Source of the DNA: Candidatus Hermodarchaeota archaeon
GTDB lineage: Archaea > Asgardarchaeota > Hermodarchaeia > Hermodarchaeales > Hermodarchaeaceae
Direction: 5' to 3'
DNA length: 64,000 bases
NCBI GenBank assembly: GCA_016839805.1
Contig: JAEOTO010000033.1
Span: 14,242-78,241 of the forward strand
Shown here: one piece after another, positions 26,828 to 32,294 of the stretch
How the letters are laid out: every line of letters begins with the position of its first letter
How positions within the stretch are numbered: position 1 is the stretch's first letter
Made by a program: the position numbers and the translations under genes
Notes under the pieces: model-generated
Database searches by the model: none
What the model saw: only the letters and a program-made list of their open reading frames with translations
Told to the model about the DNA's origin: nothing

Positions 26828-27436
26828 ATGAAACACAAATTCATAAAGTACCACATCCAAAAGGATCAGCTCGTCCGTGTACCCAAAGACTACCTCAACG
26901 AATTTGGAACTGGCGACGTCTACCTTTTGGATACAGGACCCAAAATCTACCTATGGGTCGGAAAAAAATCTACACCGGACGAAAAATTCATTGGCGCAAT
27001 TACCTCAGTTTGGAAAGATCAAGATCGAAAAGGTGCCGCCAAACTCATAACAGTGAACGAAGGCGAAGAACCTAAAGAGTTCCTTAACTTGTTAAATGGA
27101 AAAATCAGAGTTACGGATCAGGATACCGAAGGAATTCTAAAACGCGTTGCCCTTAAGCAACACGAATTCAAACTCTTTCGCATCCACATTGAAGGTGACC
27201 TCAACCTCTATTACGAAGTTAAACGCTCCAAAGATTCCCTCGATACCGGTGACGTTTTCCTTTTAGACACCTATAATAAAATGTACATTTGGCGAGGCCA
27301 GAAATCCAGCGCCTTTGAACGCTGGGAAGCCATGACTATTGCTGAGGGCTATGATGACGAACGAGCTGGACATCAGGAAATAATTATCGTTGAAGAAGAC
27401 GAAGAGCCGGAAGACTTCCTCCAAAGCCTAAAGTAA
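26828..27436 (+). CDS. Two-domain gelsolin (Asgard 2DGel-type actin regulator)
   Basis: Two repeats of TGDV(Y/F)LLDT..(I/M)Y(L/I)W.G..S...E...(NEG/EED)EEP..FL. Confidence 0.88.
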   Translation: MKHKFIKYHIQKDQLVRVPKDYLNEFGTGDVYLLDTGPKIYLWVGKKSTPDEKFIGAITSVWKDQDRKGAAKLITVNEGEEPKEFLNLLNGKIRVTDQDTEGILKRVALKQHEFKLFRIHIEGDLNLYYEVKRSKDSLDTGDVFLLDTYNKMYIWRGQKSSAFERWEAMTIAEGYDDERAGHQEIIIVEEDEEPEDFLQSLK

Positions 27437-27466
27437 TTAATCAGTTTTGAAAAGATGTAGGAAGCC

Positions 27467-27642
27467 AAGTAGGGGCTAAGAAACCCAGGCTTGAAAAGAA
27501 ATGCTAGTAAACCCAAAGCCCCTCTTAACTTATTTCCCCGCTGGATACTGTTCCACACCCGTCCAGAATCCACCATTCTAACCCAGTCGAACTCTGCTCC
27601 AGTGCAGGCGAGTAACCACTAGAGCAGAGTGAATGACTGGTT
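27467..27642 (-). ncRNA. Structured RNA / 3' UTR with three stem-loops downstream of the two-gene cassette
   Basis: 14-bp stem ACTCTGCTCTAGTG/CACTGGAGCAGAGT extended by CCAGTC/GACTGG; CTGGA/TCCAG hairpin; AGGGGCT/AGCCCCT stem. Confidence 0.45.
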
Positions 27643-27988
27643 AAGTGGCTTCATTGAGGACAAGACTGAGGAACTGTCCTAATCGACCTGTGTGTTGAAT
27701 AGCCTTGATGAGCCGAGCCTCGTGCGACGCCTTTTTCACGAGAAGATGATTCTCGCGGACGACGGCGAGCTCCGTAAGAAGGTCGTAAAGACGACGAAGT
27801 TCCATTCGATCTACTTGCTGAGAGAGGCGTTCCAGGAGGCGAAACACATCGTCGAGTGCAACCTTCTCAAGTTGATCTACATTGTCCGCGACTTTTTGCG
27901 ACCGTAAATAGGAGCGAGCCAAGCGTAATATTTGGTCGCTTGTATCATTTGTCCCTGTGGTCACGGCAATTCCCCTCAGGGTCGCCAT
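27641..27988 (-). CDS. Hypothetical protein, 115 aa, predicted all-helical
   Basis: ATG 1 nt after the upstream stop, preceded by GGGGTG; amphipathic helices; no family recognised. Confidence 0.65.
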   Translation of the reverse strand: MATLRGIAVTTGTNDTSDQILRLARSYLRSQKVADNVDQLEKVALDDVFRLLERLSQQVDRMELRRLYDLLTELAVVRENHLLVKKASHEARLIKAIQHTGRLGQFLSLVLNEAT

Positions 27989-27989
27989 T

Positions 27990-28253
27990 TTACGCACCCC
28001 CAATGCTGGCGACGTTTGAGACTTTTTGACCATTCGGCTCAATACGGACTCGGACACCACTAGGAGTTGCCTCCACGGTAATCCGACCGTTCAGGCCGTA
28101 GGTATCCTTCACTAACTCTATTAGCAAGGATCCGATTGCTCCGATTTCTCGGAGATCTTCATCACCTGTCTTAGGGGTAATGTCTATGTCGATAGGATAG
28201 GCATCAACAATGCCAATAATTCGCTGGGTTTCTTCCATCAGTTCTGTAGCCAC
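27990..28253 (-). CDS. Hypothetical protein, 87 aa, alpha/beta
   Basis: SD-like AGGTGGAG 6 nt before GTG; protein-like composition; translationally coupled to the next ORF. Confidence 0.65.
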   Translation of the reverse strand: MATELMEETQRIIGIVDAYPIDIDITPKTGDEDLREIGAIGSLLIELVKDTYGLNGRITVEATPSGVRVRIEPNGQKVSNVASIGGA

Positions 28254-28269
28254 GTTTTTCTCCACCTTT

Positions 28270-28450
28270 CTTAACACAACTGGGAAAAAACAGAAGAACG
28301 TGAAACCGGTGCTGAGGAGTTCATTAGAGTAACTGAGCAAGCCATACTCAGTCTAGTCAAAGGTCAGAACGGGAATGGGTTCGTTCCTGGGCACATTTTT
28401 CGGTTTTCACATCCGCATTTGCTTTTCCCTTGGCGAGTGTGTTTGCTGGA
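28270..28450 (-). promoter_or_regulatory. Structured ~200-nt 5' leader with a 10-codon uORF
   Basis: Long-range stem 28401-28429 with 28282-28308; inner hairpins 28331-28353 and 28365-28389; TATA-like ATATAAA at 28477-28483. Confidence 0.5.
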
Positions 28451-28687
28451 ATCCAAGTAGACAATGTGCAACAGCCTTTATATGGGGGTCCTTCACTCCT
28501 ATAACGGAGCTGACAAAAAACCGAATTAAAACAATAGAACCATCCAAAGCTTAGTTTGAACCTTAAACGCGATTACCTCTAAGCTTTCTGATAATCGGGA
28601 TTTGAGTCCTGTTCTACATTTTTGCTGTTTCGTCAAAAGGAAACTTTTTATGGGAGTTTCTTTCTTTCTGACGATGGTGTGGCGCGC

Positions 28688-30115
28688 GTGCAATCTGTGG
28701 TCGAAGTGGCAGATTTACTCTCCACCTTGAAGCACAACATCCATGAAGTAACCCTCCCAAGTGAAGAACTTTTCGAAGTTGACCTTCTGCTTGATAATCT
28801 TCGGCTATACGCTAAACGGGTTAAGGGTATTCCGTTTGACGAGGATGACTACAAAATTAAGCCACACCCATATTTTGACGGAATGGTTCTTCCGCCCCGT
28901 GAGAGAATGTACAATTCTTTGCTACGACGGCTTAAAGTCATTCTTCGGTTTAACATTACCTCATATGAAAAAGTGACGAGGGATTTATTACGTGGTCTAG
29001 TATCCGATGAAGTTGATCGGATTACAGGAAGAGAAATTCGCTTACTCACTTTGTTATATCAGCGACCCAATACTCCTCAAGCTCAAATGGCTAAAGAGTT
29101 GAATATCAGCCTCCCAACTATGCGAAAGGATATCCGGGCTCTTGAGGAAAAAATTGGTTTGCGGTTTGCCAACCTGATTGACTGGGGCCGGTTCAAATTA
29201 CGCCATTATGGAATATTCTTCATGACTGCGGATGTTAAAATTTCTCGTCGTCTTCAGAATATCTTCAATAAAGAAATGTCAACATATTTGACCAGAGCAG
29301 TTTTTGATACAACTTTTCGACGAGGATTTGTTGGTTTTAGGCTTCCTGATCAAGGAAAGCCGTTGCAACTCTTTCAAGAACAACTCGAATTTCTCAAAGA
29401 ATATCTGTTTGCGGACTGTCAGGTTCATGAAATTAAGCAATATTTCCAATCAACATGTTTTGATCACTTTGACTACGATACTAGTACATGGTTAATTGAA
29501 AGTGATGTTTCTACCTTAGGATTGTTGAATTTTGTGCGTGAGAACTGGGCGATTCTTCCTAAACCAAGAGGTTTGTCTAATACAATAGCACGTGCATTCG
29601 ATCAACTGGACTATTATTTGGCTTCATTTCTCGTTGGTGATGGAAATGCACCAATGAAAAAGATTTTAGACAGATTGAGTAGCATTGGGGTTGAAGCTCC
29701 CCGCACAACAGTTTCTACACGGAAAACTCGCCTTTTGAAAGAACGCACGATGGAGCCATATTTTTGGTTCACTACCCCACAACTACCGTTCTTTATTTCA
29801 TTCGCCGTTAAATGTGAACCTTATATTGCGGAGCAGATAGCGGTGGCGGTAGCTCAAATGCCATTGGCTTTCGCCACAGTCTCTAATATTGGATGCGTAG
29901 TAAATGTGAGTGTGCCTGCGCGAAGCCTTGGAACCATATTGAATCTTCTTTCACTTACGATTGAAGATGAGGGTGTGGAAGAGGTTTGGCAGATGCAGCA
30001 ATTTAAGAACGTTGGATCTCCTGATCCAGCTCAAATTGCGCCTAAATGGAATGGTTCGTATTGGAATTGGTCTGAAGAAGAATTCGAGATTCCTTCTCTT
30101 GGTTTAAAGTATTAG
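28688..30115 (+). CDS. Uncharacterised double-wHTH / Lrp-AsnC-like regulator, paralog 3
   Basis: ITGREIRLLTLLYQRP..QAQMAKELNISLPTMRKDIRAL; shares the N-terminal PHP motif; start uncertain (ORF track gives 28622). Confidence 0.7.
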   Translation: MQSVVEVADLLSTLKHNIHEVTLPSEELFEVDLLLDNLRLYAKRVKGIPFDEDDYKIKPHPYFDGMVLPPRERMYNSLLRRLKVILRFNITSYEKVTRDLLRGLVSDEVDRITGREIRLLTLLYQRPNTPQAQMAKELNISLPTMRKDIRALEEKIGLRFANLIDWGRFKLRHYGIFFMTADVKISRRLQNIFNKEMSTYLTRAVFDTTFRRGFVGFRLPDQGKPLQLFQEQLEFLKEYLFADCQVHEIKQYFQSTCFDHFDYDTSTWLIESDVSTLGLLNFVRENWAILPKPRGLSNTIARAFDQLDYYLASFLVGDGNAPMKKILDRLSSIGVEAPRTTVSTRKTRLLKERTMEPYFWFTTPQLPFFISFAVKCEPYIAEQIAVAVAQMPLAFATVSNIGCVVNVSVPARSLGTILNLLSLTIEDEGVEEVWQMQQFKNVGSPDPAQIAPKWNGSYWNWSEEEFEIPSLGLKY

Positions 30116-30176: not shown

Positions 30177-31229
30177 ATGGTGGTGGTGGATGTTATCCAA
30201 ATTAAAGAATCGATTCGTGAAGGAGATTTCATTGAAACCCAAGAAGGACTCATATTCGATGTAAAGGGATTAGTGCACCCACCTAACCGGGTTATTGCTT
30301 TTCTTCGTTATTATCCATCGCCAGAGGGTAAGAGAAAACGTGACGGAATCACCTATGCTAAAGTCTATCATTTAGCTGAACGATTTGACATCCTACGAAA
30401 CCGGTATCCTCAATATCTGTATCAAGATCCGGTGTTTGGTCGGGAGGTTCAAGGGGTTCCCAATGAGAACGTAAATCGAGTTTATCGTCCCACTCAGGTG
30501 TTAGAGCACTTAAATAATTTAGAGCATCGTGATACCCTGCAACAAGATGTAGTAACCTTTGCGAACATAATCTGTGAATCTGCTCGGGTTAAGCTATCCG
30601 CCTTAGGAATCTCTGGGAGTATCCAAGTGAATTTACATGGACCTAGTTCAGATATCGACCTCATTGTGTATGGAAGACGAGCAAGTCGGGCAGTTCAACT
30701 AGCCTTACGTCGATCACACCTTGCCCCTGAACAGGGAATTACTGGATACCATTTGGATAATTATCGACAAGTGTACAATCTGAGATGGAGTGGAACTGGG
30801 ATTCCGATTGAGACTATGTTGTTAGTGGATGAATTGAAGTCCATGCACGGAATATTTGGTGGTTACCACTATTTTATACGAGCAGTCTTGGATCGTGCGG
30901 AGGCAAAGGAGAAGTATGGAGACCGTACATATCACCAACTTGGTCAGGCACGGGTACAGTGTCTGATAACAAATGATCGTGACAGCCTCTTTACCCCCTG
31001 CCGGTATGAGATAGATGAAGTGGAATTTATTGAGGGAGAGCAAGTTCAGAATATTCGTGAGATTGTGAGTTTTCGTGGACGCTTTGCAGAACAGGTAAAA
31101 CGGGATGAAAAGGTAATCGTGCAAGGGATGTTGGAAAGGGTCGAAGTAGGTAAGAAGTCATGGGTACGATTCATACTGGGTGATAGACCAACGGATATCT
31201 TAATACCAAGTAGTTTGCTTGGAGTATAG
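30177..31229 (+). CDS. Predicted archaeal nucleotidyltransferase (COG1665-like), copy 1
   Basis: DFIET.EGLIF.V.G..HPP, GISGS and SDIDLIVYG Pol-beta motif. Confidence 0.8.
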   Translation: MVVVDVIQIKESIREGDFIETQEGLIFDVKGLVHPPNRVIAFLRYYPSPEGKRKRDGITYAKVYHLAERFDILRNRYPQYLYQDPVFGREVQGVPNENVNRVYRPTQVLEHLNNLEHRDTLQQDVVTFANIICESARVKLSALGISGSIQVNLHGPSSDIDLIVYGRRASRAVQLALRRSHLAPEQGITGYHLDNYRQVYNLRWSGTGIPIETMLLVDELKSMHGIFGGYHYFIRAVLDRAEAKEKYGDRTYHQLGQARVQCLITNDRDSLFTPCRYEIDEVEFIEGEQVQNIREIVSFRGRFAEQVKRDEKVIVQGMLERVEVGKKSWVRFILGDRPTDILIPSSLLGV

Positions 31230-31247
31230 TGTGGGTGGGATTATAGG

Positions 31248-32294
31248 GTGTCGCGTCACCCAAAAGATAAGGATTTTGTGGAAACCACAGAAGGTTTGCT
31301 ATTCACAGTAGTTGGATATCTGCATCCTCCAGATGCATATACGGCTTATTTGAAGTACCGTCCAGATGCTGAAGGGAAATGGGAAAGGCAAGGCATCCAT
31401 TATCGTAGAATGATGCAAGTTTATAGTGCTGCCGAAGTTCAGTCGAGTATTAATTGGCTCCAGGAAAACCATCCTGAATATGTCTCACTTGATAGGGTTC
31501 GGGGCTTTGAATTAACGTTAGTACCCTGGAAGAATATTATTGCTTACTATTTGCCTGAAGTTCGACTTGTAGAGATAATAGGAGACCCGCAGGATCCATT
31601 AGAATCAAAGACCAGCGCCCTCGTCTCATTACTTTCTGAGGCTAGTGGAGTGCCCACGAACCGGTTTGGCATTACAGGTTCATTACTATTAGGGCTTCAT
31701 AATCCAATGTTCTCTGATATCGACTTACTGGTTTATGGCCGGGAAAATGCTGAACAAGTCCGTGATTCTATGGATCAAATGTTTGGTGAGAATAAGGTCA
31801 AGCCATATTCACCAGACGAGATTAGAGGATGGCAGTATCGCCAAGTGCAAACATTGGGTATTCCAGACGAATTTGAAGAGCAGATAGCCTGGTCTTACTG
31901 GCAGCGAGGTCGTTTCAACCAAACAGCGTTTTCTATTAATCCTGTATGTACTGATGCGGAGATAATGGTTGAATATGGACAGGAAACCTATTCTTCGGTT
32001 GGTCCAGTTGAATTCACAGCGACAATCATGGAGGATCAAGGAAGCCTTTTCATTCCTGCTCGATACTTGGTAGGTGATATTACGATGGAATTAGGTGATA
32101 TTGAACTCCCCGCGTTGACCGATGTCTTGTCATTTGAGGGCATATTTTCAGCGGTCTTTAATAAAGGCGACCAGGTTCGCATTCGAGGGACAGCTGAAGC
32201 GGTTCGAGATAAGGAAGGTAATATCATCCGGAACCAAGTAGTTGTGGGATCGTTATCTACTCAAGGATGGATTATTCGTCTCCCATCATCCTGA
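31248..32294 (+). CDS. Predicted archaeal nucleotidyltransferase (COG1665-like), copy 2
   Basis: DFVET.EGLLF.V.G..HPP, GITGS and SDIDLLVYG. Confidence 0.8.
   Translation: MSRHPKDKDFVETTEGLLFTVVGYLHPPDAYTAYLKYRPDAEGKWERQGIHYRRMMQVYSAAEVQSSINWLQENHPEYVSLDRVRGFELTLVPWKNIIAYYLPEVRLVEIIGDPQDPLESKTSALVSLLSEASGVPTNRFGITGSLLLGLHNPMFSDIDLLVYGRENAEQVRDSMDQMFGENKVKPYSPDEIRGWQYRQVQTLGIPDEFEEQIAWSYWQRGRFNQTAFSINPVCTDAEIMVEYGQETYSSVGPVEFTATIMEDQGSLFIPARYLVGDITMELGDIELPALTDVLSFEGIFSAVFNKGDQVRIRGTAEAVRDKEGNIIRNQVVVGSLSTQGWIIRLPSS

What the first reader, a model, noticed from the sequence alone, without database searches (positions are those of the whole stretch)
27467..28483. Two orphan small genes enclosed by structured RNAs and paired with a divergent regulator: candidate new RNA-protein module
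Seen on the minus strand: TATA-like element, ~200-nt folded leader, coupled 87-aa alpha/beta and 115-aa helical ORFs, then a ~200-nt folded trailer. The unit is head-to-head with regulator paralog 3, which is followed by two nucleotidyltransferases. Neither small protein matches a family I recognise. Inference: a tightly post-transcriptionally controlled unit such as a toxin-antitoxin-like pair, an RNP or a signalling switch. The function cannot be determined from sequence.
Basis: partly seen in the sequence, partly recalled or inferred. Interest (0 to 1): 0.75.

Follow-up and report, generated by a model that had tools for sequence, protein, structure and literature searches.

The report
Folded Asgard operon with micropeptide
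Two small orphan genes of an Asgard archaeon sit on an unusually folded, unusually conserved messenger RNA. A third, hidden 10-codon proline-rich gene precedes them and varies together with the neighbouring DNA-binding regulator, which points to an undescribed and untested peptide-linked gene circuit.

Summary
Both ORFs (87 and 115 aa, minus strand) are real, single-copy and vertically inherited in all 18 genomes of one Asgard family. They match no Pfam, NCBIfam, PADLOC, PDB or Rfam entry.

- **RNA.** The 3' trailer has two hairpins with strong covariation, on the sense strand only. The coding RNA folds far better than shuffles (z -3 to -4). In the window's genus its synonymous sites are about 72% identical, against 33% in seven neighbouring genes and 53% in aEF1-alpha.
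- **Micro-ORF.** The leader holds a 10-14-codon proline-rich ORF that stays open in all 17 loci examined. ORF1-like genes in four other Asgard families carry one too. Where upstream DNA exists, it faces a homologue of the same regulator.
- **Cassette.** Between two close species (about 92% identity), micro-ORF, promoter region and regulator form one sharply bounded block at 61-75% identity.

Best reading: a regulator-plus-micropeptide cassette drives a structured mRNA for a coupled two-protein output of unknown biochemistry. A cis-acting leader peptide is the main rival. A toxin-antitoxin pair is unlikely.

The scan noted this module before in other genomes of this genus (e1-5552442, e1-5553868).

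The parts
28622..30115 (+). Divergent regulator (paralogue 3), 497 aa. It has a winged-HTH near residues 135-180 and is the first gene of regulator-NT1-NT2.
   Evidence: Pfam MarR/HTH_24 hits. Homologues face ORF1-like genes in other Asgard families (BLASTP 1e-39; tblastn). It diverges together with the micro-ORF.
28503..28520 (.). Conserved 18-bp block between the two divergent TATA-like elements. Candidate operator.
   Evidence: Nearly invariant in 13 species, while the surrounding intergenic DNA is not. Its function is inferred.
28476..28485 (-). TATA box of the small-gene operon, with a C-run on its upstream side.
   Evidence: Conserved in 13 species. It lies about 25 nt upstream of the invariant block.
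28423..28453 (-). Invariant 31-nt block; inferred 5' end of the transcript.
   Evidence: The first 20 nt have 100% pairwise identity in 13 species. Unique in the genome. It can pair with the U-tract at 28282-28290.
28407..28414 (-). Shine-Dalgarno-like site of the micro-ORF.
   Evidence: Conserved, 10 nt (28397-28406) before the ATG.
28364..28396 (-). Micro-ORF of 10 codons plus stop, proline-rich.
   Evidence: Open, 10-14 codons, in 13/13 genus loci and 4/4 sister-genus loci, with synonymous changes in the Pro codons. The same C-terminal motif occurs upstream of ORF1-like genes in three other Asgard families, with a looser proline-rich micro-ORF in a fourth. The motif plus stop occurs only 10 times in six frames of this 2.3-Mb genome.
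28333..28351 (-). Leader hairpin (5-6 bp stem) downstream of the micro-ORF.
   Evidence: Predicted by RNAalifold. The most divergent species keeps a hairpin here with a different sequence.
28282..28290 (-). U6-CCC tract. It may act as an anti-SD element, as a partner of the 5' block, or as an oligo-U termination site.
   Evidence: Conserved. It pairs with the SD region in the consensus fold and with the 5' block in the single-sequence fold. Both pairings are invariant, so covariation cannot test them.
28260..28266 (-). Shine-Dalgarno site of ORF1.
   Evidence: Invariant GGTGGAG, 6 nt before the GTG start. An 8-nt deletion just upstream in one species shows that this stretch is non-coding.
27990..28253 (-). 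ORF1, 87 aa, beta-alpha-beta-beta. The invariant core is L-R-E-I-x-A.
   Evidence: 40 homologues. Present in 17/18 family genomes; the missing one is cut by a contig end. Distant homologues occur in four more families. AlphaFold2 pLDDT 74. No known family or fold.
27981..28013 (-). Coupling hairpin. A 7-bp stem encloses the ORF2 SD-like G-run and the ORF1 stop, and pairs with the ORF2 start codon.
   Evidence: Helix 14 of the consensus fold, invariant in 13 species.
27641..27988 (-). ORF2, 115 aa, five-helix bundle.
   Evidence: 29 homologues. Present in 18/18 family genomes and 0/282 other Asgard genomes searched. Only 9 cluster representatives in 1.84 billion proteins. pLDDT 77.
27583..27640 (-). 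3' hairpin 1: 5-bp lower stem, internal loop and 13-14-bp upper stem, starting at the base after the stop codon.
   Evidence: Six pairs show compensatory changes and 97.6-100% of cells are paired. The G-U pairs form only on the minus strand.
27533..27544 (-). Conserved single-stranded linker between the two 3' hairpins.
   Evidence: Nearly invariant in 12 species.
27464..27529 (-). 3' hairpin 2: 11-bp stem plus 4 G-U pairs. The loop is variable and is 30 nt shorter in two species.
   Evidence: Four pairs show compensatory changes and 94.7% of cells are paired. It is followed by a T-run at 27450-27453.

Best explanation
This is a chromosomal three-cistron operon (micro-ORF, ORF1, ORF2) transcribed divergently from a double-wHTH regulator.

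Shown:
- The micro-ORF is a real, selected proline-rich peptide gene.
- The micro-ORF, the shared promoter region and the regulator evolve as one cassette.
- ORF1 and ORF2 are real, translationally coupled proteins.
- Their mRNA is exceptionally structured and, in this genus, constrained at synonymous sites.

Inferred:
- The peptide, whose hydrophobic C-terminal residue follows a proline, is the cognate ligand of the regulator.
- The regulator acts at the conserved block between the two TATA boxes. It controls both the peptide-ORF1-ORF2 transcript and its own regulator-NT1-NT2 operon. The layout resembles Rgg/SHP or RopB/LCP cassettes.
- The folded leader (U-tract against the SD, or against the 5' block) and the 3' hairpins set how much ORF1-ORF2 protein is made from each transcript.
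- ORF1 and ORF2 form a 1:1 complex that is the output of the circuit. Its biochemistry is unknown.
For: - Reality and distribution.
- Micro-ORF conservation with synonymous Pro-codon changes.
- Recurrence elsewhere: a micro-ORF ending in (D/N)-P-(F/W/Y)-P-x(0-2)-stop lies immediately upstream of ORF1-like genes in three other Asgard families, and a looser proline-rich one in a fourth. It faces a homologous regulator in all three loci with upstream DNA. The chance rate of that motif is about 10 per 2.3 Mb in six frames.
- A 40-aa variant: one family encodes a long hydrophobic N-terminal segment only 9 residues before the stop. That segment would still be inside the ribosome tunnel at termination, so the product, not the act of translation, is likely to matter.
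- Peptide and regulator among the four closest species pairs (gelsolin 90-93% identical): identical or nearly identical peptides go with regulators 86-96% identical. The one pair with unrelated peptides has regulators only 68% identical.
- Cassette: in that pair, a block at 61-75% identity runs exactly from the ORF1 start to the regulator's stop, in a background of about 92%.
- Partial Mantel test: r = 0.33, 22/5000 permutations.
- RNA layer: trailer covariation; z-scores of -2.9 to -4.25 in five species of the genus and -1.5 to -4.1 in the sister genus, against -1.05 to +1.1 for a control gene.
- Four-fold-site identity: 0.71 and 0.74 for the two ORFs, against 0.32-0.36 in seven neighbours and 0.53 in aEF1-alpha. 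Third-position composition is even, no overlapping ORF is conserved, and divergence tracks the flanks.
Against:
- The co-divergent block could reflect diversification of the regulator alone. The adjacent intergenic DNA would then hitch-hike up to the next conserved recombination anchor, which is ORF1.
- The regulator has no TPR-type peptide-binding domain, and no peptide transporter gene was seen in the locus.
- The micro-ORF always sits directly before the ORF1-like gene (12-22 nt away outside this family), as a cis-acting leader peptide would.
- The peptide reading was prompted by earlier AI notes of this scan, so it is not an independent idea.
- The function of ORF1-ORF2 remains unknown, and nothing shows that they form a complex.
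Confidence: 0.42

Rival explanations
1. Cis-acting leader (arrest or attenuator) peptide. Ribosomes translating the proline-rich micro-ORF pause near its end. The pause could depend on aIF5A activity, on proline supply or on a small molecule. It would decide whether the U-tract pairs with the ORF1 SD (off) or with the 5' block (on), or whether RNA polymerase stops at the U-tract. The peptide would have no role once released.
For: - The micro-ORF has its own SD and lies in the same inferred transcript.
- The conserved residues are C-terminal and proline-rich, with P-P-P runs in the sister genus.
- Outside this family the stop lies 12-22 nt from the ORF1-like start, over its SD.
- Two mutually exclusive pairings of the U-tract are predicted.
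- Arrest peptides acting at stop codons are an established kind (PMC11890864).
Against: - The peptide differs greatly between close species although the ribosome does not.
- Pro sits two residues before the stop, not at the last position known to hinder termination.
- The 40-aa variant has a hydrophobic helix 9 residues from the stop, so that helix cannot act co-translationally.
- Co-diversification with the regulator is unexplained except by hitch-hiking.
- The leader fold has no covariation support.
Confidence: 0.3
2. Self-binding RNP or dual-function RNA. The roughly 1-kb transcript is itself a functional structured RNA. ORF1-ORF2 bind its conserved 5' block and 3' hairpins for autoregulation or assembly. 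This is compatible with either reading of the micro-ORF.
For: - Synonymous constraint exceeds that of aEF1-alpha.
- Strongly negative folding z-scores in both genera.
- Covarying 3' hairpins.
- Short motifs shared between the 5' block and the 3' region.
Against: - Neither protein has a recognisable RNA-binding fold or motif.
- Covariation inside the coding region is weak: 8 pairs, reached by 10 of 500 shuffles.
- The synonymous constraint and the 3' hairpins are absent from the sister genus, although the proteins persist there.
Confidence: 0.15
3. Type II toxin-antitoxin-like pair under tight autoregulation.
For: Two small, translationally coupled genes of unknown function lie next to nucleotidyltransferase-domain genes.
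Against: - Single copy, in the same syntenic position in all 18 family genomes, with divergence that tracks the flanks.
- No match to PADLOC, Pfam or NCBIfam toxin or antitoxin families.
- Proteins in this genus are more conserved than their neighbours.
- The NTases are 350-aa proteins in the regulator's operon, and they are absent from the module in other families.
Confidence: 0.04
4. Remnant or minimal two-component-like switch. ORF1 would derive from the N-box half of a histidine-kinase ATPase domain. ORF2 would be a DHp/HPt-like helical partner carrying an S-H-E-x-R motif. Together they would signal to the receiver protein encoded after ORF2 in the sister genus.
For: - The ORF1 profile's only PDB sequence hit is the N-box region of a Thermotoga sensor-kinase ATPase domain (E = 0.028).
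- Foldseek rank 2 is the DosT ATP-binding domain.
- hhalign against this family's own kinases picks the same register.
- A receiver gene follows ORF2 in 3 of 4 sister-genus genomes.
Against: - All similarities are non-significant (hhalign probability 1%).
- The Mg-binding Asn and the G1 and G2 boxes are absent, and 87 aa cannot form an ATP site.
- The His of ORF2 is not kept in its paralogues.
- No HisKA or HPt Pfam hit.
Confidence: 0.05

Closest known systems
Rgg/SHP and RopB/LCP peptide-receptor cassettes of Firmicutes (RRNPPA group; LCPs in PMC10518010)
   Same: - A very short peptide gene lies beside, and divergent from, the gene of a cytosolic DNA-binding regulator.
- The peptide gene heads the regulated transcript.
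- The active end of the peptide is C-terminal and hydrophobic.
- Peptide and receptor diversify together as an allelic cassette between close relatives.
   Different: - The regulator is not homologous: it has winged-HTH domains and no TPR domain.
- The lineage is archaeal.
- The peptides are proline-rich.
- No Opp/PptAB-type transporter was seen.
- No binding or signalling has been shown.
- The downstream mRNA carries an extra RNA-structure layer.
Regulatory leader and arrest peptides (TnaC, SpeFL, PepNL/NanCL in PMC11890864; the proline-codon leader ORFs mgtL/mgtP of Salmonella are cited from my own knowledge)
   Same: - A 10-14-codon ORF with its own SD lies in a long leader.
- The C-terminal residues next to the stop are conserved, and the content is proline-rich.
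- The downstream SD can be masked by alternative pairing.
   Different: - No arrest has been demonstrated.
- Pro is at -2, not at the last position.
- The peptide varies strongly between close species and co-varies with a regulator.
- I know of no nascent-peptide regulatory ORF described in archaea, and two library searches found none.
Stand-alone RAM-domain ('demi-FFRP') partners of Lrp/AsnC regulators in archaea (my own knowledge)
   Same: A small alpha/beta protein of 65-90 aa is encoded next to a large wHTH regulator and is a plausible modulating partner.
   Different: - ORF1 shows no detectable homology to the regulator (hhalign E = 0.62).
- No AsnC_trans_reg Pfam hit.
- The model has beta-alpha-beta-beta, not the full beta-alpha-beta-beta-alpha-beta fold.
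Type II toxin-antitoxin operons
   Same: Two small, translationally coupled genes with signs of tight control.
   Different: Vertical, universal, single-copy inheritance; no family match; strong conservation.

Membership tests
RRNPPA-type peptide-receptor cassette | The receptor carries a TPR-type peptide-binding domain fused to an HTH (or a phosphatase) | tested here: not met
   The regulator has only winged-HTH Pfam matches (MarR, HTH_24, HTH_11) and no TPR.
RRNPPA-type peptide-receptor cassette | A short peptide gene lies adjacent to the receptor gene | tested here: met
   The micro-ORF is divergent from the regulator in this family and in the three other-family loci that have upstream DNA.
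RRNPPA-type peptide-receptor cassette | Peptide and receptor co-diversify | tested here: met
   Hitch-hiking of linked DNA is not excluded.
RRNPPA-type peptide-receptor cassette | The peptide binds the receptor and changes its DNA binding | not testable with these tools
   This needs a complex model or a binding assay.
Leader or arrest-peptide control | A short ORF with its own ribosome-binding site lies upstream of the regulated gene on one transcript | tested here: met
   SD-like site 10 nt before the ATG, same strand, 110 nt before ORF1. The single transcript is inferred.
Leader or arrest-peptide control | The peptide sequence, not only the RNA, is under selection | tested here: met
   The Pro codons vary synonymously. 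The ORF stays open despite indels. The motif recurs across families on unrelated nucleotide sequence.
Leader or arrest-peptide control | Alternative RNA structures couple ribosome position to SD access or to termination | tested here: inconclusive
   Two competing pairings of the U-tract are predicted, but all partners are invariant, so covariation cannot be tested. Leader z = -1.5.
Leader or arrest-peptide control | The ribosome stalls on the peptide | not testable with these tools
   Needs toeprinting or ribosome profiling.
Type II toxin-antitoxin | Homology to a known toxin or antitoxin family | tested here: not met
   No hit in Pfam, NCBIfam or PADLOC.
Type II toxin-antitoxin | Patchy, mobile or multi-copy distribution | tested here: not met
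   One syntenic copy in every genome of the family; divergence tracks the flanks.
KH domain (the parallel reading called ORF1 KH-like) | Conserved G-x-x-G loop between two helices | tested here: not met
   Both glycines are replaced in sister-genus and other-family homologues. There is no Pfam KH hit. The model shows one continuous helix there.
GHKL / HATPase_c | N-box Asn plus G1 and G2 ATP-lid motifs | tested here: not met
   Only the N-box helix and hairpin align weakly (E = 0.028; hhalign probability 1%). The Asn position is Glu/Asp, and no G1 or G2 exists in 87 aa.
Any Rfam RNA family | A covariance-model match to the leader, coding RNA or trailer | tested here: not met
   No match at gathering score over the window, nor at E <= 1 over 27380-28700.

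The most novel reading that the evidence does not exclude
Asgard archaea may possess a peptide-receptor gene circuit built from parts unrelated to the bacterial ones. A 9-14-residue proline-rich peptide ending in Pro plus a hydrophobic residue would be read by a large double-wHTH regulator, and the pair would diversify into pherotype-like alleles. The output would be a small two-protein complex made from an mRNA that is itself a conserved structured RNA. That would be the first peptide-controlled, possibly cell-cell, regulatory system in archaea.
Probability: 0.3. Interest if true: 0.85.

Novelty: new variant of a known kind. Interest (0 to 1): 0.7.

Why it matters
I know of no described peptide-based regulation or nascent-peptide sensing in archaea, and Asgard archaea are the closest known relatives of eukaryotes. 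This locus offers a compact, testable case:

- a 10-codon gene that annotation misses;
- a regulator that changes with it;
- two orphan proteins;
- an mRNA whose synonymous sites are more conserved than those of aEF1-alpha.

It also gives a practical signature for finding more such circuits: a short ORF with a proline-aromatic tail, facing a regulator of this family. And it is a clear example of RNA-level selection over a whole archaeal coding region.

Tried and rejected
- **Genomic context by exact protein look-up.** I used the genome search and the fetch from genomes instead.
- **Known protein families.** Pfam, NCBIfam and PADLOC gave nothing for ORF1 or ORF2.
- **Remote homology.** A profile search of 1.84 billion representatives found only 9 relatives of ORF2, all from the same clade.
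- **Fold searches.**
  - Foldseek against the PDB found nothing at E <= 0.001.
  - The best VIA Z-scores were 5.3 (ORF1) and 6.8 (ORF2), within the background range.
  - ESM Atlas scores were at most 0.81.
- **Kinase-fragment idea for ORF1.** It lands in the same register in three methods, but none is significant.
- **ORF1 as a copy of the C-terminal domain of the ArsR-type protein beside the ORF2 paralogue.** hhalign probability was 0.2-0.4%.
- **ORF1 or ORF2 as stand-alone copies of a regulator domain.** No similarity.
- **Explanations for the synonymous conservation.**
  - Codon bias is rejected: four-fold composition is even, so the expected identity is about 0.27.
  - A conserved overlapping or antisense ORF is rejected.
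  - A recent sweep is rejected: the variable leader parts are saturated, and divergence tracks the flanks (rho = 0.80).
- **Trailer as a repeat or mobile element.** It is single-locus in every genome, and the 5' block is unique.
- **Leader as a known riboswitch.** No Rfam match.
- **Nucleotidyltransferases as part of the module.** They are absent from the other-family loci. NT1 has no relative in the PDB by sequence.
Full report
**1. What is there**

On the minus strand, two ORFs are separated by a stop codon, one base and an ATG. ORF1 is 28253-27990 (87 aa) and ORF2 is 27988-27641 (115 aa).

Both are genuine genes.
- ORF1 has 40 homologues in the large protein collection, at 45-98% identity. 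ORF2 has 29, at 53-97% identity. All come from Asgard metagenome bins that carry various source names.
- A whole-genome search found ORF2 in 18 of 18 other genomes of the window's family: 14/14 in its genus and 4/4 in a sister genus. It was found in none of 282 other genomes of the phylum.
- ORF1 was found in 17 of the 18. The missing copy lies at a contig end.
- A profile search of 1.84 billion cluster representatives returned only nine relatives of ORF2.
- Neither protein matches Pfam, NCBIfam or PADLOC.

The AlphaFold2 models give no clear fold assignment.
- ORF1 is beta-alpha-beta-beta with disordered ends (pLDDT 74). ORF2 is a five-helix bundle (pLDDT 77).
- Neither model has a convincing structural neighbour. 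Foldseek gave nothing at E <= 0.001, and the best VIA Z-scores were 5.3 and 6.8.

The gene order is the same in both genera: regulator-2, RimK, CofE, gelsolin, then (convergent) ORF2 and ORF1, then (divergent) regulator-3, NT1, NT2. The genome also holds one ORF2 paralogue, encoded directly after a 220-aa ArsR-type protein.

**2. The flanking RNAs**

*Trailer.* The 204-nt trailer was aligned across 12 species of the genus.
- It folds into two hairpins with 34 pairs.
- 96.3% of cells are paired, against 44-57% when the partners are slid.
- Ten pairs changed on both sides; no shuffle out of 500 reached that.
- The many G-U pairs would be A-C mismatches on the other strand. The structure therefore belongs to the ORF-sense transcript and not to the convergent gelsolin mRNA.
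- A covariance model finds the element once per genome, at this locus only. It is in 14/14 genomes of the genus and 0/4 of the sister genus. In three of those four sister genomes a CheY-like receiver gene occupies that place instead.

*Leader.*
- A conserved TATA box (28476-28485) lies about 25 nt upstream of a 31-nt invariant block (28423-28453).
- A conserved 18-bp block lies between the two divergent TATA-like elements.
- Further downstream come a small hairpin, a U6-CCC tract and the ORF1 Shine-Dalgarno site.
- Support for a leader fold is weak: z = -1.5 and one compensatory pair. The U-tract can pair either with the SD region or with the 5' block.
- Rfam has no match.

**3. The coding RNA is itself constrained**

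Among nine species of the genus:

| Gene | Identity at four-fold degenerate sites | Amino-acid identity |
|---|---|---|
| Seven neighbouring genes | 0.32-0.36 | 0.61-0.81 |
| aEF1-alpha | 0.53 | 0.91 |
| ORF1 | 0.71 | 0.82 |
| ORF2 | 0.74 | 0.85 |

Three simple explanations fail.
- Third-position composition in the two ORFs is even, so codon bias cannot explain the excess.
- No alternative-frame or antisense ORF is conserved.
- The synonymous distance of ORF1/2 tracks the protein distance of the flanks (Spearman 0.80), and the variable parts of the leader are saturated. A recent sweep is therefore excluded.

The 613-nt coding RNA folds much better than dinucleotide shuffles.
- z = -3.95 in the window and -2.9 to -4.25 in four other species of the genus.
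- z = -1.5 to -4.1 in the sister genus.
- z = -1.05 to +1.1 for the gelsolin gene of the same genomes.

A consensus fold keeps 97% of cells paired. Within it, an invariant hairpin covers the ORF2 start and the ORF1 stop, which fits translational coupling. Covariation inside the coding region is only marginal. The sister genus lacks the synonymous excess.

**4. A hidden third gene**

Between the 5' block and the hairpin lies a 10-codon ORF (28396-28364) with its own SD-like site.
- It is open, at 10-14 codons, in all 13 genus loci and all 4 sister-genus loci, despite indels and heavy nucleotide change.
- Its proline codons vary synonymously.
- The common features are a Pro at position 3 or 4 and a tail of the form (D/N)-P-(F/W/Y)-P-x(0-2)-stop or P-x-P-x-stop.

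A more sensitive ORF1 profile found short ORF1-like genes in four other Asgard families.
- Each has a proline-rich micro-ORF ending 12-22 nt before its start. In three of the families (four of the five loci) the tail fits the first motif.
- In one genus the micro-ORF is 40 codons long, with a long hydrophobic N-terminal segment.
- In the three loci with enough upstream DNA, the unit faces a homologue of regulator-3 (BLASTP 1e-39; tblastn 1e-27 to 1e-39).
- The second gene differs there: it is an unrelated 94-98-aa protein. The nucleotidyltransferases are absent.

In the window's own 2.3-Mb genome, the first motif followed by a stop occurs ten times in all six frames. Only this copy precedes a gene.

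**5. Micro-ORF and regulator change together**

Four species pairs have gelsolin 90-93% identical.
- Three pairs have identical or nearly identical peptides. Their regulators are 86-96% identical over the first ~285 residues.
- The fourth pair has unrelated peptides, and its regulators are 68% identical.

A base-by-base comparison of that fourth pair shows a sharp block at 61-75% identity. It runs from just upstream of the ORF1 start to the regulator's stop codon. The surrounding genes, including ORF1, ORF2, NT1 and NT2, are 92-98% identical. Across all 13 species, regulator distance correlates with peptide distance after controlling for gelsolin distance (partial Mantel r = 0.33, 22 of 5000 permutations). 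Hitch-hiking of the intergenic DNA with a diversifying regulator remains possible.

**6. Interpretation**

The unit is best described as a regulator-plus-micropeptide cassette. It heads a structured mRNA for two coupled orphan proteins.

I rate a trans-acting peptide that is read by the regulator (Rgg/SHP- or RopB/LCP-like logic; PMC10518010) slightly above a purely cis-acting leader or arrest peptide (the kind reviewed in PMC11890864). My reasons are:
- the peptide diverges strongly between close species;
- it changes together with the regulator;
- the 40-aa variant has a hydrophobic helix too close to the stop to act co-translationally.

The two readings are not exclusive. Two library searches found no archaeal precedent for either.

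Other readings fare worse.
- A toxin-antitoxin pair is unlikely.
- The KH-like idea fails on the G-x-x-G test.
- A kinase-fragment resemblance of ORF1 is repeatable but not significant.

The biochemical role of ORF1-ORF2 remains unknown.

**7. Relation to earlier notes of this scan**

Look-ups showed two things.
- The same operon had been noted in other genomes of this genus.
- A wider family of proline-rich peptides ending in Pro-Trp or Pro-Phe had been noted beside Lrp-like regulators in related Asgard genomes.

Those notes gave me the peptide-ligand reading. I then tested it here with the cassette and co-divergence analyses. They are AI notes and do not count as independent support.

Noticed in passing
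L002:1480-2517 (own genome, contig C50:47780-48817): An ORF2 paralogue (122 aa, about 25% identical) is encoded directly after a 220-aa ArsR-type wHTH protein. That protein's C-terminal helix and hairpin look superficially like ORF1, but the similarity is not significant. A radical-SAM gene follows. The pair is present in most genomes of the genus and was not found in the sister genus.
   Followed up: partly
L019:~1912-2290; also L018 and L021 (sister genus): A CheY-like receiver-domain gene follows ORF2 on the same strand in 3 of 4 sister-genus genomes. It sits where the window's genus has the two 3' hairpins.
   Followed up: partly
L112 (G029) and L114 (G048), upstream of the ORF1-like gene: Here the micro-ORF is 40 codons long: a basic N-terminus, a hydrophobic stretch of about 22 residues, then a 9-residue proline-aromatic tail. 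It resembles a signal-anchored or exported pro-peptide.
   Followed up: partly
L092:3216-3512, L112:2699-2983 (minus strand): In two other Asgard families the gene coupled to the ORF1-like gene (ATGA overlap) is an unrelated 94-98-aa protein with no Pfam match. The second cistron of the module is therefore exchangeable.
   Followed up: partly
L116 (G085) against L037 (G091), about 1.85 kb: An allelic replacement block covers exactly the leader, the promoter region and regulator-3 between two species that are otherwise about 92% identical.
   Followed up: yes
L011:~840 (G096), codon 11 of the regulator-3 orthologue: An in-frame stop lies in the conserved N-terminus of the regulator in one genome. 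It could be a later true start, a pseudogene or an assembly error.
   Followed up: no
window 30177-32294: The two 350-aa paralogous proteins (about 30% identical) after the regulator have only a weak NTP_transf_2 core. They have no NCBIfam match, and NT1 has no PDB sequence match. They are an uncharacterised nucleotidyltransferase family with a conserved N-terminal domain.
   Followed up: partly
protein P0106 (metagenome, 211 aa): One database protein fuses an unrelated Ala/Pro-rich N-terminal region to the last 50 residues of an ORF2 homologue. It is probably a chimeric or miscalled gene.
   Followed up: no
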